This document shows positions 1,016-24,800 of a stretch of DNA of 32,000 bases, piece after piece (the stretch's first letter is position 1; each line of letters opens with the position of its first letter). The position numbers were made by a program, and so were the translations under genes. The stretch covers positions 5,610,001 through 5,642,000 of the forward strand of contig CP104013.1 of assembly GCA_025839675.1 (NCBI GenBank). Reading direction: 5' to 3'. Origin of the DNA: Candidatus Lokiarchaeum ossiferum (lineage in GTDB: Archaea > Asgardarchaeota > Lokiarchaeia > Sigyniarchaeales > Promethearchaeaceae). The notes under the pieces were generated by a model. It searched no databases and was not told where the DNA came from. It worked only from the letters and a program-made list of their open reading frames with translations.

Positions 1016-3541
1016 TCATTCTTCCATAAAAATGATATGGAATTTCGTACCAAAATTTCGATATACTTTTATCGTTCCACCTAGTTGTTTTGCTAAACCT
1101 ATAATTAATTGAAGACCTAGAGTTTCAGTTTTTTCTAAATTGATCTCCTTCGGTATCCCTATTCCTGTATCTCCGGCAATTAATTCAATTTTATTGTCGG
1201 TTCTCTTCTTTGCTTTGATAAAGATGGTTCCTCTACTCTTTTCTGGGAAAGCATACTTCAATGCATTCGAAATAATTTCATTTATGATCAACCCGCAACT
1301 AATCGCTTGATCTAAATTTAGTTCGAAATCATCAATATCTATCTCTAAATGGATTAATTCGGGTGATTTTTGATAAGTTCTAAATAAATTTGAGACTAAA
1401 TTTTGGATATAATTACCAAAATCCAGTTTTCCCAGATCATCCGATCTATACAATGTTTCATGAATAAGTGACATCGTTTTGACTCGATTTTGAAAATCTA
1501 TATTTATTTGAAGGGTTTTATCATCAGAGATTTTAGGTTTTTGTAAACGGATTAGGCTTGAAATAATTTGTAAATTATTTTTAACTCTGTGATGAATTTC
1601 TTTTAAGAGTACATCTTTTTCTTGCAAAGATTTTTTTAAATCGTTTTGTTCTTTCTCTAATAGGATTTCATATTTTCGTCTTTGAGTGATATCAATTCCA
1701 TATCCAACAAAAAAATCTAATTCATTTTCATCATTAAAAATTGGTTGTCCATGCCATTCGGTCAGATATTTTTTTCCATCTTTTGAGATGATGTAATTCT
1801 CACTCAAAGTTGGGTTAGGATGATTTATCATATTCTCAAAAATTTTACTGACATATTGTTGCTCTTCTTTAGGTATAAAATTTTGTAAATAATTTTTTCC
1901 AACAACCTCTTCCAACTTATACTTCAATGTTTCCCTCATTTTTCTATTCATCATGATAGTTTTTCCTTCTTTATTAATTGCAACAAAAAAGGCTGGAGAT
2001 GCTTCGATTATGAGTTCATTGAAATCTCTTTGTTTTTTCAGCTGGTCTGTAAGTTTTTTCTGATTGGAAATATCTTGGATTGTCCCAAAAATTTTCACTG
2101 GATTATTATTCTGATCCTTGTACAACTTAGTCATGGACCATAAAGTCTTAACTTTGCCTCTGGAATCAATTATTCGATATTCCGTTATATCTGGGACATT
2201 CTCTCCATTTATCATTTTTTGAATAAGGCGTGTTATTCTTTCCTTGTCATCAGGGTGATAAATACTAAATAACAATTCTGGTGTTATCTCCGCCTCTGTG
2301 TTTAGATCAAAGATTTGATTAAATTCTTCACTTGTTTTTAATTTGTGTGTTTGAATGAAATATTCCCAATACCCAAAATTGGCAATTGCTTCAGCTAATT
2401 TTAAATTTGCTTCATTAGTTTTGAGTTTTTCTTCAGCAAGTTTTCGATCTGTTAAATCTATCCCAACACTTAATAAACCAACCTGATTTCCTTCATGATC
2501 AGTTATCGGCTTATTAGACCATGCTATCCAGACTCGTTCTCCATTTTTTTTCTGATTTTCGTTTATATTTTCCGTGTATTTTTCAGGATTTGTCGACAAA
2601 TCAGCGATCATTGGTTTTAAGTTTGTTCCTGTAGAATCGATGTGTGGAACTATTGTGTCCAACATATGTTGACCAATTAGTTCATCTGGATCAAAACCAA
2701 AGAATTCCTCCCCGAATTTATTAATAAACGTAATATTTCCGTCCGGATCTGTTTTTAATATGATTGATTTAACAGTATTTACTATATCAACAAAATTTGA
2801 TTCGTATTCTCTTTCTCTTGTAATGTCAATTACAGACGCTGCACGTATCATTTCGCCATTAAATTCTACTCTTCGACCTTCAATTTTTACGGGAAATGTG
2901 GTTCCGTCTTTCTTTTTTAGAATTGCCTCATATCTACCATCAATTTCTTTTACCATATGCTGGTGGACTGTTTTGTTAAATTCTGGGGAAATAAAGTCAA
3001 CATAATTTTTTCCAATGAGTTCAGATGACTTTTCATACCCGAGCATTCTGACAGCTTGCCGATTTAAAGAAAGAAAAAAGCCATCTTTAGAAAGAATTAT
3101 CCCTTCTGTGGAGGCTTTATCTAGATAGGCTAGTTGAGTCTCTCGATATTTTACTGTTGTAATATTTTCACATGATATTTGAATTCCTACAAATTTTCCT
3201 TGATTGTCATGGTATTTTTTAGTTTGTTGCTTAATCCATCGTATATTGTTGTCCGAACCAATGATCTGGTATTCAAATGGATTGCGTATGTTTCCTTCTA
3301 AATTATCATGGTGAAATTTGAGAAAACCTTGGTAGAAATCTGAATGACAAATCTCCTCAATAAACTTAGAATTTTCTAAAAATTTTTCTTTAGGATGACC
3401 AAATACTGAGAGAACTGCATCATTTGCAAATAAAATTAGACCTGAAGGAATTTCTCTGAACATCACTGCACATTCTAGTTGATTTACCAGTGTTTGGAAA
3501 AAATTCGTCTCAAATTCCATTAATGGTACTTGCTTTCCCAA
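1016..3541 (-). CDS. Cytoplasmic multi-PAS sensor histidine kinase (HisKA_2-type H-box + HATPase_c)
   Basis: 841-aa ORF. Five PAS/PAC boundary-like motifs are visible: CENITTVKYRE, VIDITREREYE, GIDLTDRKLAEE, IQDISNQKKL, GIDITQRRKYE. H-box is EIHHRVKNNLQIISSLIRLQ, N-box is NEIISNALKYAF, and G-boxes are GDTGIGIP and GLQLIIGLAKQLGG. No TM segment is seen. Confidence 0.9.
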   Translation of the reverse strand: MGKQVPLMEFETNFFQTLVNQLECAVMFREIPSGLILFANDAVLSVFGHPKEKFLENSKFIEEICHSDFYQGFLKFHHDNLEGNIRNPFEYQIIGSDNNIRWIKQQTKKYHDNQGKFVGIQISCENITTVKYRETQLAYLDKASTEGIILSKDGFFLSLNRQAVRMLGYEKSSELIGKNYVDFISPEFNKTVHQHMVKEIDGRYEAILKKKDGTTFPVKIEGRRVEFNGEMIRAASVIDITREREYESNFVDIVNTVKSIILKTDPDGNITFINKFGEEFFGFDPDELIGQHMLDTIVPHIDSTGTNLKPMIADLSTNPEKYTENINENQKKNGERVWIAWSNKPITDHEGNQVGLLSVGIDLTDRKLAEEKLKTNEANLKLAEAIANFGYWEYFIQTHKLKTSEEFNQIFDLNTEAEITPELLFSIYHPDDKERITRLIQKMINGENVPDITEYRIIDSRGKVKTLWSMTKLYKDQNNNPVKIFGTIQDISNQKKLTDQLKKQRDFNELIIEASPAFFVAINKEGKTIMMNRKMRETLKYKLEEVVGKNYLQNFIPKEEQQYVSKIFENMINHPNPTLSENYIISKDGKKYLTEWHGQPIFNDENELDFFVGYGIDITQRRKYEILLEKEQNDLKKSLQEKDVLLKEIHHRVKNNLQIISSLIRLQKPKISDDKTLQINIDFQNRVKTMSLIHETLYRSDDLGKLDFGNYIQNLVSNLFRTYQKSPELIHLEIDIDDFELNLDQAISCGLIINEIISNALKYAFPEKSRGTIFIKAKKRTDNKIELIAGDTGIGIPKEINLEKTETLGLQLIIGLAKQLGGTIKVYRNFGTKFHIIFMEE

Positions 3542-3558
3542 CGGAAAAAGCTTCAGTT

Positions 3559-4041
3559 TTAGGTAGAAGAAATGTGAAAAAGATCTGTTTCATTAGAAAA
3601 AACTGGGATATCTCTAAGTATTTTTTTTACTACTTTGAGAAAATCGTTTTCACTCGTTAAAGGTTTCTGAATTATTTCAAAAGGATAATTATCTTTATTT
3701 GAAGTTTTTGAAGGATATAACCTTGAACCAGTCAGAAATATTATTGGAATTGATAGATTTTGATTAATTATGCGAGCAGCTTCGATTCCAGTTATTTTTC
3801 CTTCCAAAATTATATCCATAACAATTAAATCCGGCTTGATTTCAGCTGAAGCTATAATACTCGCTTCTCCTGAACTCACACTCTTTACTACATGCATATT
3901 CATCGAATTAATCATAATTTTAAAAGCGGAACTCGTAATATAATCATCTTCAACTAATAAAACTTGAATTTGTCTCCCTTGAATCACAGCTGTTACCATT
4001 ATTATCATCTGAATCTTATATTTATTTATGTCAAGGTGCAA
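3559..4041 (-). CDS. Single-domain CheY-like response regulator
   Basis: IQVLLVEDDY...PDLIVMDIILEG...PIIFLTG...IIQKP are receiver signature positions, and there is no output domain. The true start may be an internal Met (MIIMVTAV, about nt 4008), since the listed start overlaps the upstream ORF by 16 nt. Confidence 0.8.
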   Translation of the reverse strand: MHLDINKYKIQMIIMVTAVIQGRQIQVLLVEDDYITSSAFKIMINSMNMHVVKSVSSGEASIIASAEIKPDLIVMDIILEGKITGIEAARIINQNLSIPIIFLTGSRLYPSKTSNKDNYPFEIIQKPLTSENDFLKVVKKILRDIPVFSNETDLFHISST

Positions 4042-4977: not shown

Positions 4978-5184
4978 GTGATTCTCATGAAAGCTGACTG
5001 CACAAATTGTAAAAGACAATATGATGAAACAGAATGGTCACAATTTGTATCATTTTTACCATCCATTCAACGCGAAAAGTATTTTACTCAACAATTGTGC
5101 CCTGAATGCTATAAATTGCAACATTCAATGGAATTAGCTCAGCTAAAAATCGAGTTGAGTTTAACTACAGGAACAAATCTTTAA
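4978..5184 (+). CDS. Small zinc-ribbon protein (two CxxC pairs)
   Basis: CTNC...(33 aa)...CPEC. The start is probably the ATG at 4987 (MKADC). A T8 tract lies 23 nt downstream. Confidence 0.55.
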   Translation: MILMKADCTNCKRQYDETEWSQFVSFLPSIQREKYFTQQLCPECYKLQHSMELAQLKIELSLTTGTNL

Positions 5185-5234: not shown

Positions 5235-5969
5235 TTAAAGGTTCCAATTTTTCTTCTCCAAAGCAATTGATTTGTGGAAAGGAAGATTAAGAAGATTTTG
5301 ATTCTGGCGAACAAATTTCGCTCCGAATCCTTTTAGATCTATGAAGCGCCCTGAAGTTAATTTTACTTTACCTGAAGATAAGATTTTCGTTTCCGATTGC
5401 TGTATTGCTTGAATCACATTCCATGGTGTTTGAAATTCATCTAGTAACACTTTGGCTTTAATTTCACTTACTCCTATTAATCCCTCAATAAAATTCAGCT
5501 GCATCTTAAGACCTATTTCTAAAGAGGGGATGTCCAAGGGTTCGTATACAAACGGGTTATTTTTTTGTTGATATTTCGCAAAACTCCAGATCGTTTGCGC
5601 TGTTTCAAATTCATCAAGAGTTGTGATTAACGGAATGTTTTCTTTATAAAGAGCATAAATAATCGCTCCATAAATTGAAGCAGGCGCAATTCCGGTCCGA
5701 TCAAACATTTTTCCTGGATTTTCTAAAATAATAAGCGATTCTGGATAATAGTATTTCATTTTTTGGATTTGGGAAAAAAACCGATTATCACAGATCGATG
5801 CAACTAAATCGTCACCACGCTTGCGTTCGATCCCCATAGTTGATGAGATAAGGTAATCTGCTGTTTTCAAAGTTTCTATTTGAAGATTACATGGAATATT
5901 GCTAAAATTTCTCCGAATTTCTCCTCTTTCCCGCTCGTCCATAATAATGAGTGGCTTAAATGTTTCCAT
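5235..5969 (-). CDS. xpf: Short-form XPF/ERCC4-family structure-specific endonuclease (nuclease domain + HhH2), catalytic motifs intact
   Basis: LIIMDERERGE, TADYLIS and GIERKRGDDL (ERK at nt 5820-5828) match the ERCC4 GDXn-ERKX3D signature. The C-terminal part, GVSEIKAKVLLDEFQTPWNVI...LKGFGAKFVRQNQNLL, looks like tandem helix-hairpin-helix. Confidence 0.85.
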   Translation of the reverse strand: METFKPLIIMDERERGEIRRNFSNIPCNLQIETLKTADYLISSTMGIERKRGDDLVASICDNRFFSQIQKMKYYYPESLIILENPGKMFDRTGIAPASIYGAIIYALYKENIPLITTLDEFETAQTIWSFAKYQQKNNPFVYEPLDIPSLEIGLKMQLNFIEGLIGVSEIKAKVLLDEFQTPWNVIQAIQQSETKILSSGKVKLTSGRFIDLKGFGAKFVRQNQNLLNLPFHKSIALEKKNWNL

Positions 5970-5970
5970 T

Positions 5971-6189
5971 TCATTTCACCCTAGTTTTTGAAGAAAATAA
6001 ACATCCTAAAACAAGCAAAATGATTATTCCAACTTCATATGTGCCCATAAATGTCAGTGATCGAGTTGCCCATGTGATTTTTGAGTTAAAATAAATAGCA
6101 CCGAGGATGAATACACCAACAGTCAATATTTTTCCAAGATCAATACCTCTCCCCATAGGATTTTTTATTTTTAAGATATTTAAAATCAA
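5971..6189 (-). CDS. Small membrane protein with two predicted TM helices
   Basis: ILTVGVFILGAIYF and VGIIILLVLGCLFS are hydrophobic helices. Its stop lies 1 nt from the XPF start. The real start may be the internal MGRG. Confidence 0.45.
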   Translation of the reverse strand: MILNILKIKNPMGRGIDLGKILTVGVFILGAIYFNSKITWATRSLTFMGTYEVGIIILLVLGCLFSSKTRVK

Positions 6190-6265
6190 ATGGATTTAGG
6201 AAGATCTTAAAATTATGTTACTTCATTAAATTTGAATCATCAGTCTCGATAGACATAAAAATTAA

Positions 6266-8833
6266 TTAGCTCGCTAGAAACGTGTTTAATGATGTTTGAA
6301 ATCGTAAGGGTTGAATTTCTCCCGTAATTTCTTTTATTTTTTCCAACTTAATTTTCGATTTCTGAGCCACCTCTAACGAATTTTCATTGGTAATTTGAGA
6401 GGCTTTATGGTAGCCCGCTTGGAATAACTTTCGGGCATTATTGCGACTTAAATTAGATAAATTTTCAAATAAGTCGACCAATTCTTCTTTAACCCCATGT
6501 TTAAGACGAATTGACAAAATTTTGAGATCATGAACAAGATTTTTACAATTATCGAATATATCTGAATAAATATGCAAGTGGTTGGTTATCGATTCAAAAA
6601 TTGAAGCTTCTCGGGCTAAATCATTGGTTAATGAAAATAAATCTCCAAGGCCAAATTTAGGATGATTTGCAATTATAGATTCTACCGTGGTTTCCTCAAT
6701 CCATTTATTAGCAATGGACAGAATAGGAAGAGGATCGCGAGAATGATCAAAGCAATAGCTCATAATTATTTTATCTAACATAAAAGAAACCGAAGAAAAT
6801 GAATATTGGCAGAGTAAATTCTTTATTCGGATTATTTTATGAGGGAAAATATAGAGATTGATTGCAAGCTGTCCCAATTTTGTAGCAGTAAAACGATCAT
6901 TAGATTTTGTTATGGCAATTAATCCATGTTCTTCTAAGAAATCATAAATGGACTCATGTTGAACTATTAAAGGTATTATAAGTTTTAGGTATTTATAGGC
7001 GGGATGAACGGGATTTCCTAAAATATATTTCATCAATGTGGTTAAATGGGTGCAAAGAGTCGGTGAATTGATTAGATCATATCCCGCATTAAAATATTTT
7101 TTCATAGGATTACAACTGCATTGCATCCCCACATGAATATCAATCCTACAGTGATAACGATTTTTTATTATCTTTTTCTTCGATAAGGAACTGCTGATTG
7201 ATGCAATAATACTTTCTGGCGTGATTTTCGAAAAATCATAATTGAAACGAGTGATATCACAACTTGGAGCTCCAAATTGATCCAAAAAATAATCATAATT
7301 TAGGGAATCTACGGAAAAAAATTGCGATAATTCCAGGAAGGAACTTTTTTTGTATCCTTTTTGCAATTCCCCCGAATAAAGTTGAGATGCAAAAAAAGTT
7401 TTTTGAAGTAATTTTGAGATATCTTGTTTAGAAATACCAGGATTTTCATGAATTATAAGCAATACTAATTCTTGCAAAATGGGTCGATCTTTCAATTTTG
7501 AAGTAAGTTGCGCATATTTTGGTATCATTGTTCCATCATTTGCCACTTTTTCTTGAAAGTACTCCGATCTTACAAAATTTTTTTCTTCTTCATTTCGAAG
7601 CAGAATAATCCCCTTTCCTGCTTGATCATATCCCAATCGTCCCGCTCTTCCAAGCATTTGATGCAATTGGTTTGAAGAAAGGGGATGAAATACTCCAGAT
7701 GAAGTTAAACAATTTCGATAACCATCTTCCAAATAATCGGCATTAGATACTTCCCATGTTTTGCGATGTTGGACGATATCTGATATAATGGAAAAACGAG
7801 CAGGTGTGTTTACTCCTGCCGCAAGTGTTGACGTTGCAATTAATACCTTGATATTGTGCTCCTTATAAAGTTTTTCTACTATACGTCGGTCCAACACGCT
7901 TAAAGAAGCATTATGATATGCAATACCAAAGGGAATGACTTCTTTTAATACTGTTGCAACAGAACGGTTTGCTTTAAGATTTTTTACGCCTTTTATACAT
8001 TGATCTTTTTCAATATCTGATAAATAATTAACTACAACAGATTTCAGCAATTGGGTGAAATTTAAACAATCTTTGCGTCTATTGACAAAAACAATAACTT
8101 GTCCCTTTTCTTCCAAAGCAAACTTTACAATTCGTTTAATTTCTGAGAGTTTATTTTTGTAAATGCGAAATTCATAATCCAGCTTAATTGGTCTTTTTTT
8201 TGCATGTAATAATTGGAATCGTTTTCCAAAACTGCTCAACCATTTTGCAAAACTCTCATAATTTGCTATAGTGGCGCTTAAGCATATAACTTGGAGAAAG
8301 GACAATCTATCAAGAATTCGAGTAAGCAATATTTCTAAATGGGCTCCTCTTCGGGAAGATGAAATTTCATGAACTTCATCAATAACTAGCAATGATATCT
8401 TTTTTAAAATTGGATGATTTTGGCGAACCAAAGTATCGAATTTCTCGAAAGTTGTGATAATTAAATCAGCTCCTTCAATTATTCTATCTTCAGCCTCTGT
8501 ATCGGAGGTGATAGTTTTAACTAAAAAAGAATTTCCAATCTTTTCTTTGGTTAAGATCTGGGAAAAATGATATTTTTTTTCTGTTGCTAGAGCTTTGTAG
8601 GGTACTAAGTAGATTGTAACTCCTGATCCATTTAATAAATGCTTTGCAATAGCTAGCTCCGCAATTAATGTTTTACCTGATCCTGAAGGGGAACAAACTA
8701 AAAAATTTTGATTAAAAAACAATCCTCGTTGGATGGCTTCCGTTTGGATTGTATGAAGGCTCTTAATCTGCTGCACCTCCAAAAGTCTAATTAGAGATCT
8801 ATAGGGAACTATTTCGTTAATTTCAGTCATCAT
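6266..8833 (-). CDS. Ski2/Hel308-like DEVH-box SF2 helicase with an inserted SWIM-type zinc finger and a C-terminal HhH-like domain
   Basis: Motif I SPSGSGKT, motif II VIDEVHE, motif III LSAT, motif VI QMLGRAGRLG. The C-terminal LSRNNARKLFQAGYHKASQI resembles Hel308 domain 5. The ATGATG start overlaps the upstream stop (ATGA). Confidence 0.9.
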   Translation of the reverse strand: MMTEINEIVPYRSLIRLLEVQQIKSLHTIQTEAIQRGLFFNQNFLVCSPSGSGKTLIAELAIAKHLLNGSGVTIYLVPYKALATEKKYHFSQILTKEKIGNSFLVKTITSDTEAEDRIIEGADLIITTFEKFDTLVRQNHPILKKISLLVIDEVHEISSSRRGAHLEILLTRILDRLSFLQVICLSATIANYESFAKWLSSFGKRFQLLHAKKRPIKLDYEFRIYKNKLSEIKRIVKFALEEKGQVIVFVNRRKDCLNFTQLLKSVVVNYLSDIEKDQCIKGVKNLKANRSVATVLKEVIPFGIAYHNASLSVLDRRIVEKLYKEHNIKVLIATSTLAAGVNTPARFSIISDIVQHRKTWEVSNADYLEDGYRNCLTSSGVFHPLSSNQLHQMLGRAGRLGYDQAGKGIILLRNEEEKNFVRSEYFQEKVANDGTMIPKYAQLTSKLKDRPILQELVLLIIHENPGISKQDISKLLQKTFFASQLYSGELQKGYKKSSFLELSQFFSVDSLNYDYFLDQFGAPSCDITRFNYDFSKITPESIIASISSSLSKKKIIKNRYHCRIDIHVGMQCSCNPMKKYFNAGYDLINSPTLCTHLTTLMKYILGNPVHPAYKYLKLIIPLIVQHESIYDFLEEHGLIAITKSNDRFTATKLGQLAINLYIFPHKIIRIKNLLCQYSFSSVSFMLDKIIMSYCFDHSRDPLPILSIANKWIEETTVESIIANHPKFGLGDLFSLTNDLAREASIFESITNHLHIYSDIFDNCKNLVHDLKILSIRLKHGVKEELVDLFENLSNLSRNNARKLFQAGYHKASQITNENSLEVAQKSKIKLEKIKEITGEIQPLRFQTSLNTFLAS
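7046..7120 (-). other. SWIM zinc-finger signature (CxC-x19-CxH) inside the helicase
   Basis: Protein segment MQCSCNPMKKYFNAGYDLINSPTLCTHLTTLMKYIL. CSC is encoded at 7112-7120 and CTH at 7046-7054, followed by a helix-like stretch as in canonical SWIM. Confidence 0.6.
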
Positions 8834-9636
8834 TCCGCCTGGTATTTGTCCGGTTTAAAATTAGGTGTCATTATTAAAAAACGCCCTTGATCTAAAATAT
8901 ATCGGCGAGATTTTGAAACTCGCTGTAGTTGGGATTTTCCTTTAGATGTTCTTTTAATAATGTTTGAAAATGTTATTTCTCGTATCCATTTTTCTGGAGA
9001 ATATTGTGTGGATTTAAGCGATATCCAACTGCCTTGTAACATTTGGATAAAATCTGCATAATAGGGTACCTCACTATTATAAATTGGATTAAACGTTATA
9101 TGATGTATAAGAATTATCAAGAAGTTGCCTTTTGTTGTTAATGTTGAAATTTTTGGAAATAAAATATCACTAAAAGTGTGGACAGCATGAATATAGTCGG
9201 CATAATTAGAAACAGAACCAATTGTTGATTTCAAAATCCGAGAAAATGAATTTATGATTAATATTGGTCTTTCTTTCTTTACATTTTTATTCATTGGTAG
9301 AGATTCAATTAATTGAAATAAATCTTGGACGGATTGACATGAAAAATGATACATTCGTTCCAATAATGAATTTTTTGAGGAAAACATATTTTGAAGGATA
9401 CTTGGAGAAAGCCCACCTTCATTATCTGCGATATAAATGGGCTGAGTTGATATAGGTAAATGATATCGGATAAATTCTCGCAATAACGTAGATTTACCTG
9501 ATGCATTTTCCCCATTTATATGAATTATTGAAGGAAGTTCTTCCCGATATGAATGGGCAGACATCAATTTAATAAATCCATTAGTGTATGAAGGATTTTT
9601 CAGGGGTTTATTAAGTGCGGTGCTCTTTGAAATCAT
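8830..9636 (-). CDS. Divergent RecA/RadA-fold ATPase paralogue (RadB- or Rad51-paralogue-like core only, no N-terminal HhH domain)
   Basis: Walker A NGENASGKSTLL. IYIADNEGGLSP resembles RadA vvYIDTEgtF. The Walker B-like hydrophobic strand is PILIINSFSRIL, and FLIILIHHITFNP resembles the vvvTNQV strand. Confidence 0.6.
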   Translation of the reverse strand: MISKSTALNKPLKNPSYTNGFIKLMSAHSYREELPSIIHINGENASGKSTLLREFIRYHLPISTQPIYIADNEGGLSPSILQNMFSSKNSLLERMYHFSCQSVQDLFQLIESLPMNKNVKKERPILIINSFSRILKSTIGSVSNYADYIHAVHTFSDILFPKISTLTTKGNFLIILIHHITFNPIYNSEVPYYADFIQMLQGSWISLKSTQYSPEKWIREITFSNIIKRTSKGKSQLQRVSKSRRYILDQGRFLIMTPNFKPDKYQAE

Positions 9637-9650
9637 AAGTAATCGTTTCC

Positions 9651-10055
9651 TTAATTTTGTGTGCTCGCAGAGTATAATAATTCTGATCTTTGTTCACTTT
9701 TGAGTAAATTTCTTGATATATCCTGAGTATTAGTTTTTCCTGGTAATAATTCAAAGAGTGTCTCGATAATAGCTGCTTTTATTATATTATCTTCGATCAA
9801 TTCTTTGGAATTCAAGTGTTTAAGTCGCTTTACGTGGATTCTTGTATAACTTGAAATTTCCTTATGCATCCGTGTAAATTCGTTAATTAAATAAATTAAG
9901 AAATCATCTTCTTCCAATATTCCTTTGCTAAGCTGGGATACTTTCTCTCGAAGTTCTGCTCGATTCTTCTTTATGGTCTTTGAGATCTGAGATTCCAGCT
10001 CTAAACAATCTTGCTCTGTCATAAACTTGACCTTGAAAGATATTAAAAAAATCAA
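9651..10055 (-). CDS. Hypothetical small helical/coiled-coil protein
   Basis: 134-aa ORF wedged between radA and the RecA-fold paralogue. The listed start overlaps the radA stop by 4 nt, and an alternative start is MTEQD at about 10022. No motif recognised. Confidence 0.5.
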   Translation of the reverse strand: MIFLISFKVKFMTEQDCLELESQISKTIKKNRAELREKVSQLSKGILEEDDFLIYLINEFTRMHKEISSYTRIHVKRLKHLNSKELIEDNIIKAAIIETLFELLPGKTNTQDISRNLLKSEQRSELLYSASTQN

Positions 10056-11212
10056 GCTAAGGGATCTGCAATTCCTTTAGCCTTTTTCGCTTGCGATTTT
10101 TTTGTTGCGGGTTTCCTTGATGTGCTTTTTTTTTTTTTGGAAGACGTGCTTTTCTTTACTTTCACTGGGTCTTTTTCCAGCTTTTCAGTGGCGATTAATA
10201 AGTTCTCTTCTTCGTTCAAATCCGCAAGTGTCTTAAGTTCGCCTTCTTCCATGTATGTAATCGTTTCATCGTCGCTTATCCCCGCTTCTGTAATGTAAAA
10301 TACAGCAGATTCAGGTGGTAAATCCGGAGCATCAACGACTGTTGCAGTCCGTTCTAAACTCGAATTTGATTGAAATCCTTTTGTTTTAAAAACTATTCTG
10401 AAATGGCATCCATGGGCAACAATATTTCCTCCGATTGCTTCGTTTGACGCAAAGGAGCCTTTCATTTGAACCCCAACTTGATTGGTGACTAATACTGCTA
10501 TATTATGTGTCTCCGCAATTCTCGATAGATCATGAATCAATTTGTTCAAAACTTGTTGACGGGCAGCAAGCATCCCAATTCCGATGTATTCTGATCTCAT
10601 TAGAGCCATTAGCGAGTCAACAATAATGAGTTTCGCATTTTTCTCTTTTATTGCTTGTTCTGCCGCTCTTATCATTTGGAGTTGGTGATCCGTGGAAAAA
10701 ATCCTTGCGTGGTAGATATTTTGAAGTGTAGATGTAGGATCCAACCCAAAACGTTTAGAAATCCGTTCTACTTTAGTCCGTGAAAAAGTATTCTCCGTAT
10801 CAATGAATAAAACTGAGCCATCCAAACCGCCTTTTGATTTTGGGAGTTGACAAGTGACACACAAAGTATGGGATAGGTTCGTTTTTCCGCTTTTGAATGC
10901 TCCATAGACTTCAGTAATGCGACCAGTGGAGATTCCCCCATTCAAAATATTATCAAAATTTTGACTGCCTGTAGTACAATATTCAAAATTTTCTTCAATC
11001 GTTGATACTTGCTTAAATGTCGCCAGATTAAGACTGTCTCTTGCATTCCAGACTAAATTTTTGGATGCTTTTGCAGAGATTCCGTCAATTTCTTCTAAAT
11101 CTTTAGGTACACTCATAGCTAGAGCTTCAAGTGAATCGATACCAGATTCGGTGAGTAGTTTGATTTGACGGGGTTTGATGGATTTTAGAGCTAATAATTC
11201 CAATTTAATCAA
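10052..11212 (-). CDS. radA: RadA/Rad51-family recombinase with an extra C-terminal acidic-then-lysine-rich tail
   Basis: N-terminal HhH region (IKLLTESGIDSLEALAMSVPKDLEEIDGISAKAS), Walker A GAFKSGKT, HTLCVTCQLP, VLFIDTENTF, Walker B LIIVDSLMAL, VLVTNQV and ITEAGI are all present. The only in-frame start is TTG at 11212, with a stop two codons upstream. Confidence 0.95.
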   Translation of the reverse strand: MIKLELLALKSIKPRQIKLLTESGIDSLEALAMSVPKDLEEIDGISAKASKNLVWNARDSLNLATFKQVSTIEENFEYCTTGSQNFDNILNGGISTGRITEVYGAFKSGKTNLSHTLCVTCQLPKSKGGLDGSVLFIDTENTFSRTKVERISKRFGLDPTSTLQNIYHARIFSTDHQLQMIRAAEQAIKEKNAKLIIVDSLMALMRSEYIGIGMLAARQQVLNKLIHDLSRIAETHNIAVLVTNQVGVQMKGSFASNEAIGGNIVAHGCHFRIVFKTKGFQSNSSLERTATVVDAPDLPPESAVFYITEAGISDDETITYMEEGELKTLADLNEEENLLIATEKLEKDPVKVKKSTSSKKKKSTSRKPATKKSQAKKAKGIADPLA

Positions 11213-11277: not shown

Positions 11278-11721
11278 TTATCCTTCTGCAGAAAATTCAG
11301 CAAGGATTTTTGAATTATTGAAACATTTCATTTTTCCTGTAAATTCTTTTAAATCTTCTGCATGAATCGCTAAAAAATGTTCACGTAAATTGTTTAAATA
11401 ATAATTTATTTTTAGTTCAGAAGTGGACACTGAGGAACGACAGATAAAAATCAAATCAGGATTCGAATTGTGAAGAAGAGATAGCTTGAAAGATGCCATT
11501 GTTATGTTTTGACACTTTTCTATAAATATATCTGTGGCAAAGCTTGTTATCGCAGAGACGAATCCTGCAAACAAATCTCCATTTATATCTCGAATGTGTG
11601 CTGAATGGAGCAAAGGGATCCCAGTTTTGGTCATGATCCAGATTTCTTTAACAAATTTTGGAGGTTTCATTGGAAATTGTTTCCTTTTAATAGTATGGTT
11701 TGGAAGATATTGCTTCCTCAT
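11278..11721 (-). CDS. Longin/Roadblock-like small regulatory-fold protein (tentative)
   Basis: The pattern runs strand (IWIMTKTGIPLL), helix (GDLFAGFVSAITSFATDIF), strands (ITMASFKLSLLHN, LIFICRSS), helix (ELKINYYLNNLREHF). This is typical of the longin/Roadblock alpha-beta sandwich. The likely start is MKPPKF at about 11670, which avoids overlap with the upstream ORF. Confidence 0.45.
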   Translation of the reverse strand: MRKQYLPNHTIKRKQFPMKPPKFVKEIWIMTKTGIPLLHSAHIRDINGDLFAGFVSAITSFATDIFIEKCQNITMASFKLSLLHNSNPDLIFICRSSVSTSELKINYYLNNLREHFLAIHAEDLKEFTGKMKCFNNSKILAEFSAEG

Positions 11722-12666: not shown

Positions 12667-13278
12667 TTAAGTCAGTTTCCTTCTTAACACCTCTACTAAT
12701 AAATCAGAAAAAATTCGAGATACATCGCCCGGATTTTTAGTGTCATTGGCTGTAGATTCATAGGGTATTTTCAATAGTTTTGTTGGATTCTGAGTTGGCA
12801 ATCCCATTTGTGTAACAAACTCATTGATTGATATTGCATTGGGAAGATCTCGTTTATTTAGCAAGATATAAATTGGAATTTGTGATTTTTGAGAAAAAGA
12901 CTTCAATTCTTCGAAAGATCGACAATTTGAAGCCATTTTCTTTGGATCAGAGTCTGCCACAAAAACTGCTCCATCGGCATTTTCAAGTACATATTCTCGA
13001 GTCGCTAGAAAACGTTCTTGTCCCGTAGTGGTTGATACTATCGCTTGCACAACACAATTTATACTCGGGAATTGAAATTCGAAAGTCACACTATCACACC
13101 AGAGTGTTCGTTTATCTGTGGTTTCTATAGAAATTCCTTTACTCACCAATTTGGTAGCAAATTTTCGTTTTAAACATTCAAAATTTGTGGTTTTTCCTAC
13201 TTCTCCCGGACCCCAATACATGATTTTAATTGGGATGTATTTTGGTTTGAAAATTGGTTGGGTGTCAAGATCTTCCAT
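12667..13278 (-). CDS. mglA: MglA-family small Ras-like GTPase
   Basis: G1 is GPGEVGKTT and G4 is LNKRDLPNA. G3 is TTGQE, with Thr replacing the usual Asp of DxxGQ, the known MglA hallmark. Several blocks parallel Myxococcus MglA as I remember it: KIVYYGPGLCGKTTN, TVPGQ, VDGVVFVADS, YNKRDLPNA. Confidence 0.85.
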   Translation of the reverse strand: MEDLDTQPIFKPKYIPIKIMYWGPGEVGKTTNFECLKRKFATKLVSKGISIETTDKRTLWCDSVTFEFQFPSINCVVQAIVSTTTGQERFLATREYVLENADGAVFVADSDPKKMASNCRSFEELKSFSQKSQIPIYILLNKRDLPNAISINEFVTQMGLPTQNPTKLLKIPYESTANDTKNPGDVSRIFSDLLVEVLRRKLT

Positions 13279-21863: not shown

Positions 21864-24800
21864 CTAAATTGTGACTGCAAAATCTTCCAAAGCTTCTATA
21901 AGTGCTTCTATTTTTTTAGAATCTGATATAGCCAAATGATTGATTAAAATTTGTCTATCTTTTAATAAAAATTGTATAGATCGAGCTTCAGGGATTGAAT
22001 CGAGCGAGGAAATTCCGAGCTGCCATTGATTCTTTAAATAGTCAATTGCTTGACTCCTTTCTTGATCTTGTAGCTTAGAACGTGTTTCAACCAAAAGATC
22101 AATTAAAAAGGAACGCAATTCATTTTGCCAAGCATAACTTTCTAAAGTTAAGGATGGTGAAGGAAGGGTGTCTTTAGAACTAAAAGATTTTTCAAAATAG
22201 GTTTTAACATCTGAATTATGCTCTTTAGAATCCATTCTTTCTGTTACAGATGAGCCTATAGGTATTCCATCATTTGAAATCAAAATTTTTAACTCTTCAG
22301 GATCCAAAATTTTTGTCCGACTTGAAGAAACACGCTGCAATTTTGTAAATTTTTTAAAATCCTTTAAACATTTCTCTGCTTTTGAGGACAGAATATATCC
22401 AGTTATTTCAATGTTAGAATTTGCTTGATGAGTTTTTTTAATAAAATACTTTCGATTAATTAAATCTTCGAGAATGGATGCAGTTTTTTCTTTCCGATGT
22501 TTTACATCTATTGGGTAAAAATTTCTCAAGGTACTATCAATAATACTTTCTAGATCTTCGAGTAAGGTGTGTTTTGGAATGACTTTGGAAATAGTTAGAC
22601 TCTTAGCACAATCATTTAAAAAAATATGAAGATCATTATGTAAAGAAGGTTGATTGCTAAATTCTATGGTCAAAGACGTAACCAAAGGTGGATTTTCGGG
22701 TTCAGCAGGTGCAACAATCTTCGAAAATTGGAGATGTGAAGGAATGTTTTGTGGGAGTATGAAATTTAATCTTTCTGTGTCGGTATCAAGCTGATCAAAT
22801 TGAAAAACATAGGATTTCTGATATAATGTTCGATATATGATGCCTTTATTAAGATCTAAAGAAGTCAAATATTGATATTGATAACTGGATTGCCTCGCGG
22901 ATTTTTGGGATGTATTGGTAAATTGCCCATCAAATTTCAATAAAGATCCCAGTAAACGTCGATGATTATATTGAGCTGTTCGCAAGGCGATAATTGTATC
23001 AAAATTAGCGTGGATGGATTCATGAATTTCTGCACATTGACAAGATTCTGCTAAGATTGGCATTTGTAGTGCTAAAAATTCTGCAAACATTTCATCTATG
23101 GTTGTATGGTTCCGTTTGTCTATCCGGTTATTAAATATTAAGTGTAAATGAGGAAGCATGATCACTTTAGGAAGAATTGAGGCTTCATTGGTATAATCGC
23201 TAAGTAAAAATTGTAACTGGGTTAGAAATACCTGAATAAACAAATTTTTATATTTATTCACCTTTAACCGAGAAAGATCCAAGATGAAAGGTGAAGCCGA
23301 TTCTATAAATGTGAGTGGATTAAGAGAGACACTCATGTCTCGATCAAAAGCTATAAAATATTGCTGAGCTTTGAATAAATTCATCATGGTAAACACTTCA
23401 CTTTTGTGTAAGGTTGCAGGAGATTTATCGAAAAAGGCTTCAATCCGTTCAACTATTAACGATAAATCTGCTTTTCCAGACTCATTTTTCGTTATCCATG
23501 CACTGCGTAAAATAGATATTTGATCATTATTCCAATGAAATATTCGCCCGAAAATATCCAAAACCTTTTCAATGTAAGAGATTAAATCTTCTCCAGCCTC
23601 CGTTATTGGAAGATCAAAGAGTTTCAATCCAAAATCATTACCGACTTCTAAATACTGAATTGGGTTTGATTCATTATCTGAAGCTGAACCTAATCGAGAT
23701 TTCCAAGTACCATCCCAATCAAAAATGATTGCGGGGATATTATGTTTTAATAATTCCTTAATTATACGAATTGAAATGATTGTGTTTTGACGGTGATTAT
23801 CTCCTGCTAGCAAAATATTTCCCCATAGTTCAGCAATATTTATCCCTCCTTCACTTTCTAACGTGAAATTTTCTGGATTAAAAGTACTTCCCAAAAAAAT
23901 TTCATCGTTAAGATAGGGTGTGGAAAATTCTCCAGCATAATACATAGGAAGCACCCGATGAATTTCTTCTGGAATCATTATCAACTCCGATAATTGGATC
24001 CCAGCGGCACAAAATAAAAATAAAGGTGATGAATAAGATCCCCATCGTCGATTTTTACAAATAGATTGGAAGAAGACTTTTGAAGACACTTGTTTTATCT
24101 CACAAGAAGGATGAGCTAAGTTTAAAATCTGAAGGTATTGTTCCTGTGCAAAGATTTTCTTAATATAAAATTCTTTACCAAAATCTTCGATTTTTTCCAG
24201 AGGCATTTCTGTGGCTAAAGTAAATTGATTTTGAAAACGATAAAAGCCACAATATTCGCGTTCTAATGTTTTACGTTTACCTGGAATTTTTTCAAAGAGT
24301 GCATAATCCTTATCTTGTAAAAAGTCTCGAAATTCTGCAATCATTTCATTGGGAGTAACCCGATCTAAAAAATATTGATGGCTGAAGGATGTAGATGTAT
24401 TATTAAAATTGTTCATTAAAGCTCGATATAGTTTTGTGTTATTTTGATGGTAGGCTCGGTTTAGCTGACGCATGGAAAAATGCTGACGACATGTAATAGT
24501 GTTTCGTTCAGGAGTGTGGATCCAAACATCTCCATCTGGATCTAAATAAAGAAGTTCATTAGTTGGAAAAAGATCGATGGGTAAATAAGAATGAATTGAT
24601 TTTTGAGTCCGAAAATAAAAGGTAGCGCGGAACCGTGCAATCATATTGATCAGAGTAAATAAAACCATTCCCACGACTCCATAAATTACGTATGGGATTG
24701 TGGAAAACAAAAGCATGCCAACATATCCCACAAGGCTTAAATTGAAAAGCAAAGGAAAATAATGTCTGATTAAGTATTTTAAGCCCTTTATCGGGGATAA

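What the first reader, a model, noticed from the sequence alone, without database searches (positions are those of the whole stretch)
7046..9636. SWIM zinc finger embedded in a Ski2/Hel308-like helicase and start/stop-overlapped with a Rad51-paralogue-like ATPase (Shu-complex-like pairing)
Seen in sequence: CSC-x19-CTH followed by a helix (MQCSCNPMKKYFNAGYDLINSPTLCTHLTTLMKYIL) fits the SWIM CxCxnCxH signature. It sits in the post-RecA2 region of an 855-aa DEVH helicase, which is longer than I would expect for a Hel308-type helicase. The gene immediately upstream, overlapping by ATGA, encodes a stripped-down, highly divergent RecA-fold protein. Its blocks are NGENASGKST, IYIADNEGG, ILIINSFS and ILIHHITFNP. 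Established knowledge: in eukaryotes the SWIM-domain proteins Shu2/SWS1 bind divergent Rad51 paralogues (Csm2-Psy3, SWSAP1) to promote Rad51 filaments. SWIM domains are also known in some prokaryotic SF2 ATPases. Inference: the SWIM plus Rad51-paralogue association may exist here as a helicase-linked form.
Basis: partly seen in the sequence, partly recalled or inferred. Interest (0 to 1): 0.65.

Follow-up and report, generated by a model that had tools for sequence, protein, structure and literature searches.

The report
Zinc-knuckle Hel308 helicase with RadA paralogue
A Lokiarchaeial recombination operon pairs a Hel308/HELQ-type DNA helicase, which carries a conserved and so far unannotated zinc-binding insert, with a very divergent RadA/Rad51-like protein, recalling the human HELQ–RAD51-paralogue partnership more than the yeast Shu complex.

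Summary
The 855-aa minus-strand helicase (6266-8833) carries CSC-x19-CTH at residues 572-596. All four ligands are invariant in 44 Asgard orthologues down to 32% identity. They sit in a ~130-aa insertion in the winged-helix domain of an otherwise canonical Hel308. The upstream 268-aa gene overlaps it by ATGA and encodes a RecA-fold protein. Its best structural matches are RAD51D, RAD51C and XRCC3, and its Walker B Asp is replaced by Asn.

SWIM membership is unproven. The signature and a strand-CxC / CxH-helix layout are met. The Pfam SWIM model, Foldseek and profile-profile tests give nothing or only weak signal.

The Shu-like inference is only partly supported. The cassette radA / ~120-aa helical protein / paralogue / helicase is conserved in one Lokiarchaeial clade, including Promethearchaeum syntrophicum. 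A second clade keeps the zinc insert with no adjacent paralogue. One distant paralogue lies beside a Hel308 that lacks the insert. So the paralogue tracks Hel308, not the zinc module.

The closest analogue is the HELQ–BCDX2 partnership. This is a new variant of known kinds, of moderate interest.

The parts
10052..11212 (-). RadA recombinase, 386 aa, with an N-terminal HhH domain and a ~70-aa Lys/Ser-rich C-terminal tail. First gene of the cassette.
   Evidence: Pfam Rad51 1.3e-75 and NCBIfam RadA PRK04301 2.6e-94, above cut-off. A radA gene lies at the same position in L001, L003, L008, L009 and L021.
9651..10019 (-). Small helical protein of unknown function. It is 122 aa from the ATG at 10019; the mechanical ORF runs from a TTG at 10055 and gives 134 aa. 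It is conserved between radA and the paralogue.
   Evidence: Homologues of 116-138 aa occupy the same slot in L001, L003, L008 and L009; BLASTP 4e-16 and 4e-6 to L003 and L001. There is no Pfam or PDB match.
8830..9636 (-). Divergent RadA/Rad51-paralogue-like RecA-fold P-loop protein, 268 aa. It has no N-terminal HhH domain.
   Evidence: AF2 model pLDDT 86.7. The top 22 Foldseek PDB hits are RAD51D/C, XRCC3, XRCC2, RAD51 and DMC1, from 1.6e-10; KaiC first appears at rank 23. The core-family profile hits RadA at 1.9e-7, Rad57 at 6.8e-7 and RadB at 2e-5. The family has 73 relatives at E<=1e-3 among 1.84 billion representatives.
9487..9513 (-). Walker A of the paralogue, GENASGKST, residues 42-50.
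   Evidence: G42 and G47 are invariant. At position 48, Lys occurs in 20 of 24 family members and Arg in 4.
9247..9264 (-). Degenerate Walker B of the paralogue, ILIINS, residues 125-130, with Asn where Asp is expected.
   Evidence: Family counts at this position are D 13, N 9 and H 2. The P. syntrophicum orthologue has IVIIDS.
8830..8833 (-). ATGA start/stop overlap between the paralogue and the helicase, implying translational coupling.
   Evidence: Sequence at the junction. The same 4-nt overlap occurs in P. syntrophicum, L001 7001-7004. In L022 the two genes overlap by 11 nt. L008, L009 and L021 have gaps of 15-52 nt, and L003 has a larger gap of about 330 nt with an opposite-strand ORF in it.
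6266..8833 (-). Hel308/HELQ-family Ski2-like SF2 helicase, 855 aa: RecA1, RecA2, split winged helix, ratchet and HhH domains.
   Evidence: Pfam DEAD 5e-29 and Helicase_C. NCBIfam Hel308 models reach 1e-95 but below cut-off. The profile hits Hjm 2zj2 at 3e-142, including the C-terminal ratchet/HhH stretch at 1.7e-20. Motifs I, II, III and VI are invariant.
6953..7378 (-). Insertion of ~140 aa (residues ~486-627) inside the winged-helix domain. It consists of two short helices, a four-stranded sheet, the zinc knuckle and two helices.
   Evidence: It has no counterpart in Hjm, where residue 451 joins 457. AF2 sub-model: pLDDT 77 overall and 86-94 over the sheet and the CxH helix, with strands 52-59, 63-70, 81-87 and 91-94 and helix 117-128 in sub-model numbering.
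7046..7120 (-). CxC-x19-CxH motif (C572, C574, C594, H596), the predicted Zn ligands with a SWIM-type signature.
   Evidence: Invariant in 44/44 orthologues. In the model CxC ends a strand and CxH starts a helix.
5971..6189 (-). 72-aa ORF with a TTG start and two hydrophobic segments, between the helicase and the nuclease. Whether it is a real gene is uncertain.
   Evidence: Mechanical ORF only; no family match. No small ORF was called in the equivalent position of the other loci examined.
5235..5969 (-). XPF/Hef-type ERCC4 nuclease, 244 aa, the last gene of the same-strand run.
   Evidence: Pfam ERCC4 2.1e-20 and NCBIfam Hef nuclease 1.5e-31. An ERCC4 gene lies within a few kb of the helicase in L001, L002, L008 and L009.

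Best explanation
This is a homologous-recombination gene cassette of a Lokiarchaeial (Asgard) archaeon. The gene order is radA, a ~120-aa helical protein, a divergent RadA paralogue, a Hel308/HELQ-family helicase and, further on, an XPF nuclease.

Shown:
- The helicase has all core Hel308 motifs and domains, plus a ~130-140-aa insertion in the winged-helix domain.
- The only invariant residues of that insertion are CxC...CxH.
- The paralogue is a RecA-fold protein closest to RAD51 paralogues and RadA, with a decaying ATPase site (Walker B Asp to Asn here).
- The two genes are translationally coupled, and the gene order is conserved across a clade that includes a cultured species.

Inferred:
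- The four ligands bind one Zn ion and rigidify a small sheet-plus-helix module. This module projects from the WH domain. Inserting an accessory domain into the WH domain is also how Mtr4 and Ski2 acquired their arch domain.
- The module acts as an accessory recognition arm of the helicase, for branched or duplex DNA or for a protein partner. It does so independently of whether the paralogue is encoded next door.
- The paralogue, probably with the small helical protein, acts as a mostly non-hydrolysing RadA-filament mediator or cap that works with the helicase. It is made in fixed ratio with it. This would couple assembly or stabilisation of the RadA filament to Hel308-driven remodelling, annealing or D-loop processing, as proposed for human HELQ with BCDX2 and RAD51.

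By signature and layout the zinc module is SWIM-type with a long loop. Homology to the SWIM family remains unproven.
For: Hel308 identity and position of the insert.

Zinc-ligand invariance: the ligands are the only invariant residues over ~190 positions, and the only Cys conserved 44/44.

Secondary-structure layout with high local confidence.

Weak SWIM-profile signal:
- Loop-trimmed constructs hit PF04434 in 5/44 cases (best E 0.0064), against 0/44 shuffled controls with the same ligand positions.
- hhalign against nine bona fide SWIM segments scores 19.0, against 12.7 +/- 2.8 for column-permuted controls; 10 of 300 controls reach the real score.

Paralogue fold and family.

ATPase-site decay.

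Linkage of paralogue to Hel308: 8 of 8 informative contexts.
- Seven loci have the paralogue directly upstream on the same strand as a helicase of this family: window, L001, L003, L008, L009, L021, L022. The zinc motif was checked in six of the seven; in L021 only the first 347 residues of the helicase are on the contig.
- One locus (L013) has it divergent to a canonical Hel308.

ATGA overlap here and in P. syntrophicum.

Literature:
- HELQ binds BCDX2 and RAD51 (PMC3778836, PMC13125761, PMC13623763).
- The Mtr4/Ski2 arch domain is inserted in the WH domain (PMC10946056).
Against: - No experiment or multimer model links the paralogue physically to the helicase. Adjacency could reflect co-regulation only.
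- Zinc binding is inferred, not measured.
- The Pfam SWIM model and Foldseek give no native match. The profile-profile excess over controls is marginal (p about 0.03).
- In L003 the paralogue and helicase are ~330 nt apart, with an opposite-strand ORF between them.
- The role proposed for the zinc module, a DNA or partner recognition arm, rests on position and analogy only.
Confidence: 0.6

Rival explanations
1. Shu-complex-like mechanism. The SWIM-type module of the helicase is the docking site for the RadA paralogue, as the Shu2 SWIM domain binds the Rad51 paralogue Shu1. The helicase would thereby deliver or position a filament mediator.
For: - A CxCxnCxH module and a RAD51-paralogue-like protein are encoded by overlapping genes.
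- In yeast the Shu2 SWIM domain directly contacts the paralogue Shu1 (PMC5727457).
- The zinc loop differs systematically between clades. Mean net charge is +2.2 in the paralogue-linked clade and -2.3 in the clade without an adjacent paralogue. This would fit clade-specific partners.
Against: - The module is invariant in four loci of a second clade with no adjacent paralogue.
- A paralogue family member sits next to a Hel308 with no insert.
- SWIM homology is unproven.
- From memory of Godin et al. 2015, not checked here: Shu2/SWS1 proteins carry an invariant Ala three residues after the His. That position is Ala in only 15 of 44 orthologues, and Thr in the window.
- No interface prediction was possible.
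Confidence: 0.17
2. Co-regulated neighbours only. The genes share an operon because all act in recombination or repair, but the paralogue works on RadA alone, as RadB or aRadC do. The zinc insert would be a purely structural elaboration of the WH domain.
For: - radA, XPF and, in other loci, XPG/FEN1 genes cluster in the same neighbourhood, so this is a general repair island.
- Spacing between paralogue and helicase ranges from an 11-nt overlap to a ~330-nt gap.
Against: - Adjacency to a Hel308-type helicase holds in 8 of 8 informative contexts. It includes a distant member in a different arrangement (L013), which argues for selection on the pairing itself.
- The ATGA overlap is conserved between two species whose helicases are 42% identical.
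- The zinc loop is strongly conserved within each clade, which is unusual for a mere structural filler.
Confidence: 0.18
3. The 268-aa protein is not a recombination paralogue. It would be a KaiC/FlaH/ABC-like or STAND-like P-loop NTPase with another role.
For: - The single sequence only gives sub-threshold Pfam and NCBIfam hits to ATPase_2, ArlH, ABC-F and RadB.
- The 5-sequence profile puts ABC-F first in the PDB, at 4.9e-4.
- KaiC and FlaH appear among fold and profile hits.
Against: - With a 24-member core-family profile, RadA, Rad57, RadB, RecA and DMC1 lead by about 3 orders of magnitude over KaiC and FlaH.
- The top 22 Foldseek hits are all RAD51-family chains.
- The family consensus DTExKFS and LIIDSxSxxLK matches the RadA motifs IDTEGTF and VDSxxAL.
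- The gene always sits between radA and Hel308.
Confidence: 0.05

Closest known systems
Archaeal Hel308/Hjm and metazoan HELQ (Ski2-like SF2 DNA helicases)
   Same: The core motifs I, II (DEVH), III and VI are present. The order RecA1-RecA2-WH-ratchet-HhH is the same. The profile matches Hjm 2zj2 at 3e-142 across the N-terminal two thirds and the C-terminal ratchet/HhH region.
   Different: There is a ~130-140-aa insertion with an invariant CxC...CxH inside the WH domain. The protein scores far below the NCBIfam Hel308 equivalog cut-offs, 267-322 bits against 887-1216. A survey of archaeal Ski2-like helicases reported Hel308 as missing from 13 of 15 Lokiarchaeota genomes (PMC10946056); this divergent form may explain that. 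The 2026 review of Hel308/HELQ that I searched does not mention zinc.
[quoted passage not shown]
   Same: A Hel308-family helicase is functionally partnered with RAD51-paralogue-type RecA-fold proteins. The paralogue's best structural matches are RAD51D, RAD51C and XRCC3 chains from BCDX2 and CX3 complexes. The interaction is documented in PMC3778836, PMC13125761 and PMC13623763.
   Different: Here the link is only genomic: operon, start/stop overlap and conserved synteny. There is one paralogue plus a small helical protein, not a four-subunit complex. HELQ has no zinc insert in its WH domain according to the domain descriptions in PMC13623763. Orthology of this paralogue to any eukaryotic paralogue was not tested.
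Shu complex (Shu2/SWS1 SWIM protein with the Rad51 paralogues Shu1, Csm2-Psy3, SWSAP1)
   Same: A CxCxnCxH zinc module co-occurs with a degenerate Rad51-like protein. Shu2's loop is also atypically long, n=59, and the Shu2 SWIM domain is a sheet flanked by helices (PMC5727457).
   Different: The module is embedded in a helicase rather than being a small stand-alone subunit. Module and paralogue are decoupled in both directions across lineages. No sequence or structural similarity to Shu2 was detected.
SWIM zinc finger, Pfam PF04434, including SWIM-bearing bacterial SF2/SNF2-type ATPases
   Same: It shares the CxCxnCxH signature, with CxC at a strand end and CxH at a helix start. SWIM in an SF2 helicase context exists: a Pseudoalteromonas gene annotated 'DEAD/DEAH box helicase' carries CTCSRNSKCRH near its N-terminus.
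   Different: The spacer is 16-26 residues, against 5 in the nine control SWIM segments and a 'usual' 6-16 (PMC5727457). The Pfam model is not matched natively. The position is internal to a WH domain of a Ski2-like helicase, not N-terminal to an SNF2 ATPase.
Arch/KOW insertion of Mtr4 and Ski2
   Same: [quoted passage not shown]
   Different: Fold and size are unrelated. The arch is a long helical stalk with a KOW or beta-barrel domain in RNA helicases. No homology is implied, and the exact insertion point was not compared.
Archaeal RadA paralogues RadB and aRadC
   Same: It is a short RecA-core-only protein without the N-terminal HhH domain. RadB 2cvf is hit at 2e-5 by the core-family profile. 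The distant tail of the family search contains proteins matching Pfam Rad51, RecA and KaiC-type models.
   Different: It is below threshold for NCBIfam RadB, 17 bits against a cut-off of 172. It has its own conserved motifs, HHVSYNP and PYxxDLMxxLxGxW. The Walker A and Walker B residues are degenerate in part of the family. It is strictly linked to Hel308.

Membership tests
SWIM zinc finger (PF04434) | CxCxnCxH ligand signature | tested here: met
   C572-x-C574-x19-C594-x-H596. It is present in 44/44 orthologues with n=16-26. n is at or above the usual 6-16 quoted in PMC5727457.
SWIM zinc finger (PF04434) | Ligands conserved, as expected for a metal site | tested here: met
   They are the only invariant residues between positions 457 and 653 of the alignment. 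The other 10 Cys are conserved in 1-37 of 44 sequences.
SWIM zinc finger (PF04434) | Beta strands leading into CxC, and an alpha helix starting at CxH | tested here: met
   In the AF2 sub-model, strand 91-94 ends at C94 and helix 117-128 starts at C116/H118. Block pLDDT is 86-94 there. Ligand distances could not be measured because no coordinates were available.
SWIM zinc finger (PF04434) | Match to the Pfam SWIM profile | tested here: not met
   No hit for the full protein, for sub-sequences, or for 24 orthologous inserts at E<=10. The positive control YehQ scores 1.2e-7. With the loop cut to 6 residues, 5/44 hit SWIM below threshold (best 0.0064), against 0/44 ligand-preserving shuffles.
SWIM zinc finger (PF04434) | Profile-profile similarity to bona fide SWIM domains beyond the ligands | tested here: inconclusive
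   hhalign of the loop-trimmed family profile against nine annotated SWIM segments gives score 19.0, P 7.5e-4 and probability 25%. Column-permuted controls with fixed ligands give 12.7 +/- 2.8, and 10 of 300 reach the real score.
SWIM zinc finger (PF04434) | Structural similarity to a solved SWIM domain, for example Shu2 | tested here: inconclusive
SWIM zinc finger (PF04434) | Binds zinc | not testable with these tools
   Needs metal analysis of purified protein.
Hel308/HELQ helicase | SF2 motifs I, II (DExH), III and VI | tested here: met
   PSGSGKT, DE.H, SAT and Q..GRAGR are invariant in 44 sequences. Pfam DEAD and Helicase_C score above cut-off.
Hel308/HELQ helicase | WH, ratchet and HhH domains after RecA2 | tested here: met
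   Profile stretches align to Hjm 361-451, 457-506 (weak) and 567-699 (1.7e-20). Many orthologues carry Pfam PF21280 Helicase_dom4_arc.
Hel308/HELQ helicase | Reaches the NCBIfam Hel308 equivalog cut-off | tested here: not met
   267-322 bits against cut-offs of 887-1216. It is a divergent subfamily, not a standard equivalog.
RadA/Rad51 paralogue (RecA-fold mediator) | RecA-type ATPase core fold, closest to the Rad51 family | tested here: met
   Model pLDDT 86.7. The top 22 Foldseek hits are RAD51D/C, XRCC3, XRCC2, RAD51 and DMC1 at 1.6e-10 to 3e-8, with TM 0.53-0.63. KaiC is at rank 23.
RadA/Rad51 paralogue (RecA-fold mediator) | Sequence-profile relationship to RadA/Rad51 | tested here: met
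   The core-family profile of 24 sequences hits RadA at 1.9e-7, Rad57 at 6.8e-7 and RadB at 2e-5, against KaiC/FlaH at ~4e-4. The single sequence is below the Pfam and NCBIfam cut-offs.
RadA/Rad51 paralogue (RecA-fold mediator) | Intact Walker A and Walker B | tested here: not met
   Walker A GENASGKST is intact. Walker B is ILIINS, Asn for Asp. Family counts: Walker B D13/N9/H2; Walker A K20/R4. Degenerate sites are common in eukaryotic Rad51 paralogues, so this argues against recombinase activity, not against paralogue status.
RadA/Rad51 paralogue (RecA-fold mediator) | Acts on RadA filaments | not testable with these tools
   Only genomic context is available: the gene always lies between radA and Hel308.
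Shu complex (SWIM protein plus Rad51 paralogues) | The SWIM module and the paralogue co-occur and depend on each other | tested here: not met
   The insert occurs without an adjacent paralogue in L004, L005, L006 and L010. A paralogue lies next to an insert-less Hel308 in L013. Whole-genome presence or absence was not tested.
Shu complex (SWIM protein plus Rad51 paralogues) | Direct contact between the SWIM domain and the paralogue | not testable with these tools
Shu complex (SWIM protein plus Rad51 paralogues) | Shu2/SWS1-type extended motif CxHxxA (recalled from Godin et al. 2015, not re-read) | tested here: not met
   The residue three positions after the His is Ala in 15/44 sequences. It is Thr in the window, and otherwise S, F, L, Y, D and others.
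HELQ-RAD51 paralogue partnership | A Hel308-family helicase associated with RAD51-paralogue-type proteins | tested here: inconclusive
   The association is genomic only: 8 of 8 informative contexts, with ATGA overlap in two species. Physical interaction is not testable here.

The most novel reading that the evidence does not exclude
Asgard archaea may carry, in one operon, a combined forerunner of two eukaryotic recombination-mediator arrangements. The SWIM-type zinc module built into Hel308 would dock a degenerate RadA paralogue, together with the small helical protein. The helicase would thereby load, cap or strip RadA filaments. On this reading the eukaryotic SWIM-paralogue (Shu) and HELQ-BCDX2 partnerships would descend from, or converge on, one archaeal machine.
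Probability: 0.12. Interest if true: 0.8.

Novelty: new variant of a known kind. Interest (0 to 1): 0.52.

Why it matters
A 2026 review of Hel308/HELQ says that clear data for a Hel308-RadA interaction in archaea are lacking (PMC13623763). It also notes that human HELQ binds RAD51 and the BCDX2 paralogue complex.

A conserved, translationally coupled operon of radA, a paralogue and Hel308 makes that question directly testable. It occurs in the lineage closest to eukaryotes, including the cultured Promethearchaeum syntrophicum. It also suggests the helicase-paralogue partnership predates eukaryotes.

The finding defines two unannotated protein features:
- a zinc-knuckle insertion in the WH domain of Asgard Hel308;
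- a fast-evolving RadA-paralogue family with a decaying ATPase site.

It may also explain why Hel308 was reported as missing from most Lokiarchaeota genomes (PMC10946056).

Tried and rejected
- Pfam SWIM on the full protein, two sub-sequences and 24 orthologous inserts gave no hit.
- PDB sequence search with the insert profile gave only noise, E>0.3.
- Foldseek of the insert model against the PDB gave nothing below E 0.1.
- The last large protein search, using the insert alignment, returned only 385 candidates and three fragments. It was uninformative about the module outside this helicase family.
With the 5-sequence alignment it re-found only one known locus.
- The 5-sequence paralogue profile against the PDB was dominated by P-loop matches to ABC ATPases. 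I rejected this as a classification once the deeper family profile and the fold search agreed on RadA/RAD51.
- The 64-sequence alignment A3 gave very strong RadA hits. I did not rely on it because its tail contains bona fide Rad51/RadB proteins.
- The small helical protein has no Pfam or PDB relative.
- Bacterial promoter and terminator scans were not run, because they do not apply to archaea.
- Model coordinates are not exposed, so zinc-site geometry could not be measured.

Full report
**1. What is in the sequence**

Bases 5235-11212 of the minus strand carry a tight same-strand run of genes:
- RadA, 10052-11212, 386 aa. Pfam Rad51 1.3e-75; NCBIfam RadA above cut-off.
- A small ORF, 9651-10055. 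Its likely start is the ATG at 10019, giving 122 aa.
- A 268-aa ORF, 8830-9636.
- An 855-aa helicase, 6266-8833.
- A doubtful 72-aa ORF.
- An XPF/Hef-type ERCC4 nuclease, 5235-5969.

The window has ~32% G+C. The helicase and the paralogue are recorded on a 6,035,313-bp contig, and their closest named relatives are Lokiarchaeial/Promethearchaeota proteins, including Promethearchaeum syntrophicum. The size matches what I recall for 'Ca. Lokiarchaeum ossiferum'; I did not verify this.

The stop codon of the 268-aa gene and the start codon of the helicase share ATGA at 8830-8833.

**2. The motif is real and conserved**

CSC-x19-CTH lies at residues 572-596 of the helicase, window 7046-7120. It is the only CxC-x(6-25)-CxH in any of the six frames.

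One occurrence would not be significant at genome scale. Conservation settles it. In an alignment of 44 orthologues (32-84% identity, 816-898 aa), C572, C574, C594 and H596 are invariant. They are the only invariant positions between residues 457 and 653. The protein's other ten cysteines are conserved in only 1 to 37 of 44 sequences. The spacer is 16-26 residues, mostly 19 or 20. This is the pattern of a structural metal site.

**3. Where the motif sits**

The family profile matches P. furiosus Hjm (2zj2) at 3e-142. Hjm residues 3-350 and 361-451 align first. About 130 profile positions (492-620) then have no counterpart. Hjm 457-506 and 567-699 follow.

From established Hel308 domain boundaries (my knowledge), Hjm residues ~416-500 form the winged-helix domain 3. 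The insertion therefore splits the WH domain.

Putting an accessory domain into the WH domain is also how Mtr4 and Ski2 acquired their arch domain (PMC10946056).

An AlphaFold2 model of residues 479-641, built from 24 orthologous segments, has mean pLDDT 77. The pLDDT is 86-94 over the core. The model shows two short helices, four strands, CxC at the end of the fourth strand, a low-confidence loop, and a helix that begins at CxH.

The helicase motifs I, II (DEVH), III and VI are invariant, so the enzyme is probably active.

**4. Is it a SWIM domain?**

The signature and the strand/helix layout fit. Other tests do not confirm it.

- The Pfam SWIM model is not matched by the protein, by sub-sequences, or by any of 24 orthologous inserts, even at E<=10. 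The model does detect the E. coli control YehQ at 1.2e-7.
- The control SWIMs have 5-residue spacers, so I cut the loop to six residues. Then 5 of 44 constructs hit SWIM below threshold (best E 0.0064). SWIM was the only family hit more than once. None of 44 shuffles that kept the ligand positions hit it.
- I built a profile of nine bona fide SWIM segments from E. coli and plasmid records. hhalign against it scores 19.0 (P 7.5e-4, probability 25%). Column-permuted controls with fixed ligands score 12.7 +/- 2.8, and 10 of 300 reach the real score.
- Foldseek of the model against the PDB finds nothing below E 0.1. The insert profile finds no PDB sequence.

**5. The 268-aa protein**

The word-indexed search found only five relatives. 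The exhaustive profile search found 73 at E<=1e-3, of which 25 at E<=1e-10.

The single sequence gives only sub-threshold P-loop hits. A 5-sequence profile is led by ABC ATPases.

A 24-member core-family profile is clearer. None of its members individually reaches Pfam Rad51. Its single-domain PDB hits are led by S. solfataricus RadA (1.9e-7), Rad57 (6.8e-7), P. furiosus RadA and RadB (2e-5). RecA, UvsX, DMC1 and XRCC3 follow. FlaH and KaiC come near 4e-4.

The AF2 model has pLDDT 86.7. Its top 22 Foldseek PDB hits are RAD51D, RAD51C, XRCC3, XRCC2, RAD51 and DMC1, from 1.6e-10. KaiC first appears at rank 23, at 5e-8.

The family consensus GxNxSGKS, DTExKFS, LIIDSxSxxLK and HHVSYNP parallels RadA's Walker A, IDTEGTF, VDSxxAL and the following strand. 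There is no N-terminal HhH domain.

The nucleotide site is decaying. Walker B is Asn in the window and in 9 of 24 members (His in 2). The Walker A Lys is Arg in 4 of 24.

So 'divergent Rad51/RadA-paralogue-like RecA-fold protein' is supported. It is unlikely to be a recombinase itself.

**6. Synteny**

The order radA / 116-138-aa helical protein / 240-282-aa paralogue / helicase recurs in these loci:
- P. syntrophicum MK-D1 (L001, with the same 4-nt overlap);
- L003, L008 and L009;
- two further contigs reached from distant paralogue family members, L021 and L022. In L022 the truncated helicase still shows the CxC.

These helicases form the clade most similar to the window protein (36-84% identity).

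In a second clade (33-36% identity; Promethearchaeota, Thor- and Hermodarchaeota names) the zinc ligands are still invariant. No paralogue is adjacent in any of the four loci examined, L004, L005, L006 and L010. An HMM of the family finds no member among their neighbours.

Conversely, a distant family member (P0144, 2.9e-17) lies head-to-head with a 784-aa Hel308 that has no insertion and no CxC...CxH.

So the paralogue family tracks Hel308-type helicases in 8 of 8 informative contexts. It does not track the zinc module.

**7. Mechanism**

Most likely, the paralogue is a largely non-hydrolysing RadA-filament mediator or cap, probably acting with the small helical protein. It would be produced in fixed ratio with the helicase and act together with it. 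The zinc module would be an intrinsic accessory arm of the helicase, present whether or not the paralogue is encoded alongside.

The eukaryotic parallel is HELQ, the Hel308 orthologue. HELQ binds RAD51 and the BCDX2 paralogue complex (PMC3778836, PMC13125761, PMC13623763). For archaea, the same review states that clear data for a Hel308-RadA interaction are lacking.

The Shu-like alternative, in which the SWIM module docks the paralogue as the Shu2 SWIM domain docks Shu1 (PMC5727457), is not excluded. One observation leans that way. The zinc loop is basic in the paralogue-linked clade (mean net charge +2.2) and acidic in the other (-2.3), and it is strongly conserved within each. The decoupled distribution makes this the less likely reading. 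No interface prediction could be run.

**8. Novelty**

I found no paper linking SWIM or zinc to Hel308, and none describing this operon or this paralogue family. The precomputed Pfam annotations of all listed orthologues contain no SWIM domain.

A survey of archaeal Ski2-like helicases reported Hel308 as absent from 13 of 15 Lokiarchaeota genomes and attributed this to incompleteness (PMC10946056). The divergence of this form is an alternative explanation; it scores far below the NCBIfam Hel308 cut-offs.

I rate the finding a new variant of known kinds: a Hel308 helicase, a RadA paralogue and a SWIM-type knuckle. Interest is moderate. It is real, conserved, unannotated and experimentally tractable in cultured Asgard archaea. 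The most exciting reading remains unproven.

Noticed in passing
window 10052-10260 (C-terminal ~70 residues of RadA): RadA carries a Lys/Ser-rich, low-complexity C-terminal tail (…KKSTSSKKKKSTSRKPATKKSQAKKAKG…) beyond the end of the Rad51 domain at residue ~314. RadA homologues in related loci range from 358 to 449 aa, so tail length varies.
   Followed up: no
window 7049-7111 (zinc loop) compared with 43 orthologues: The loop between CxC and CxH is strongly conserved within each helicase clade but switches charge. Mean net charge is +2.2 in the clade with the adjacent paralogue and -2.3 in the clade without it. Both clades share a D-N-(x)-F sub-motif.
   Followed up: partly
window 21864-25658 (-) and 27633-29783 (-); L004, L005, L010: The 1264-aa ORF with no Pfam match is distantly similar (19% over ~750 aa, 2e-13) to the ~1280-1298-aa protein of a four-gene operon. 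That operon lies divergently next to the zinc-insert helicase in the second clade. The 716-aa DEAD/Cas3-like_C_2 helicase is 36-42% identical to the helicase that flanks those loci. A larger conserved neighbourhood around Hel308 may therefore exist.
   Followed up: partly
window 12667-13278 (-) and 11278-11721 (-); L001 10234-10725; L021 1453-2073: A small Ras/Arf/Roc-like GTPase, and a 147-aa ORF without family hits, lie just upstream of radA. Small GTPase genes are also close to the cassette in P. syntrophicum and in L021.
   Followed up: no
L001, L003, L009 (neighbours of the cassette): XPG/FEN1-type nuclease genes (XPG_N/XPG_I) and ERCC4 genes recur within a few kb of the cassette, which suggests a broader repair island.
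   Followed up: no
window 4978-5184 (+): A 68-aa ORF has two Cys pairs (CTNC … CPEC), which looks like a small zinc-ribbon protein. It sits between the XPF gene and the upstream regulators.
   Followed up: no
window 1016-4041 (-): An 841-aa multi-PAS histidine kinase (HisKA_2/HATPase_c) is followed by a 160-aa ORF whose sequence looks like a response-regulator receiver domain. The receiver assignment is by eye only.
   Followed up: no
L013 3603-4232 (-) and 4245-5111 (-): Next to the distant paralogue and the insert-less Hel308 lie a 209-aa P-loop protein (…GASPNAAGKTT…) and a CxxCxxCC-domain protein. These are possible further partners in that lineage.
   Followed up: no
alignment A4 (paralogue family): One family member gave a weak Pfam hit (E 0.0017) to CSM2, the Shu-complex Rad51 paralogue. 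It is a single sub-threshold hit and is probably only generic RecA-fold similarity.
   Followed up: no
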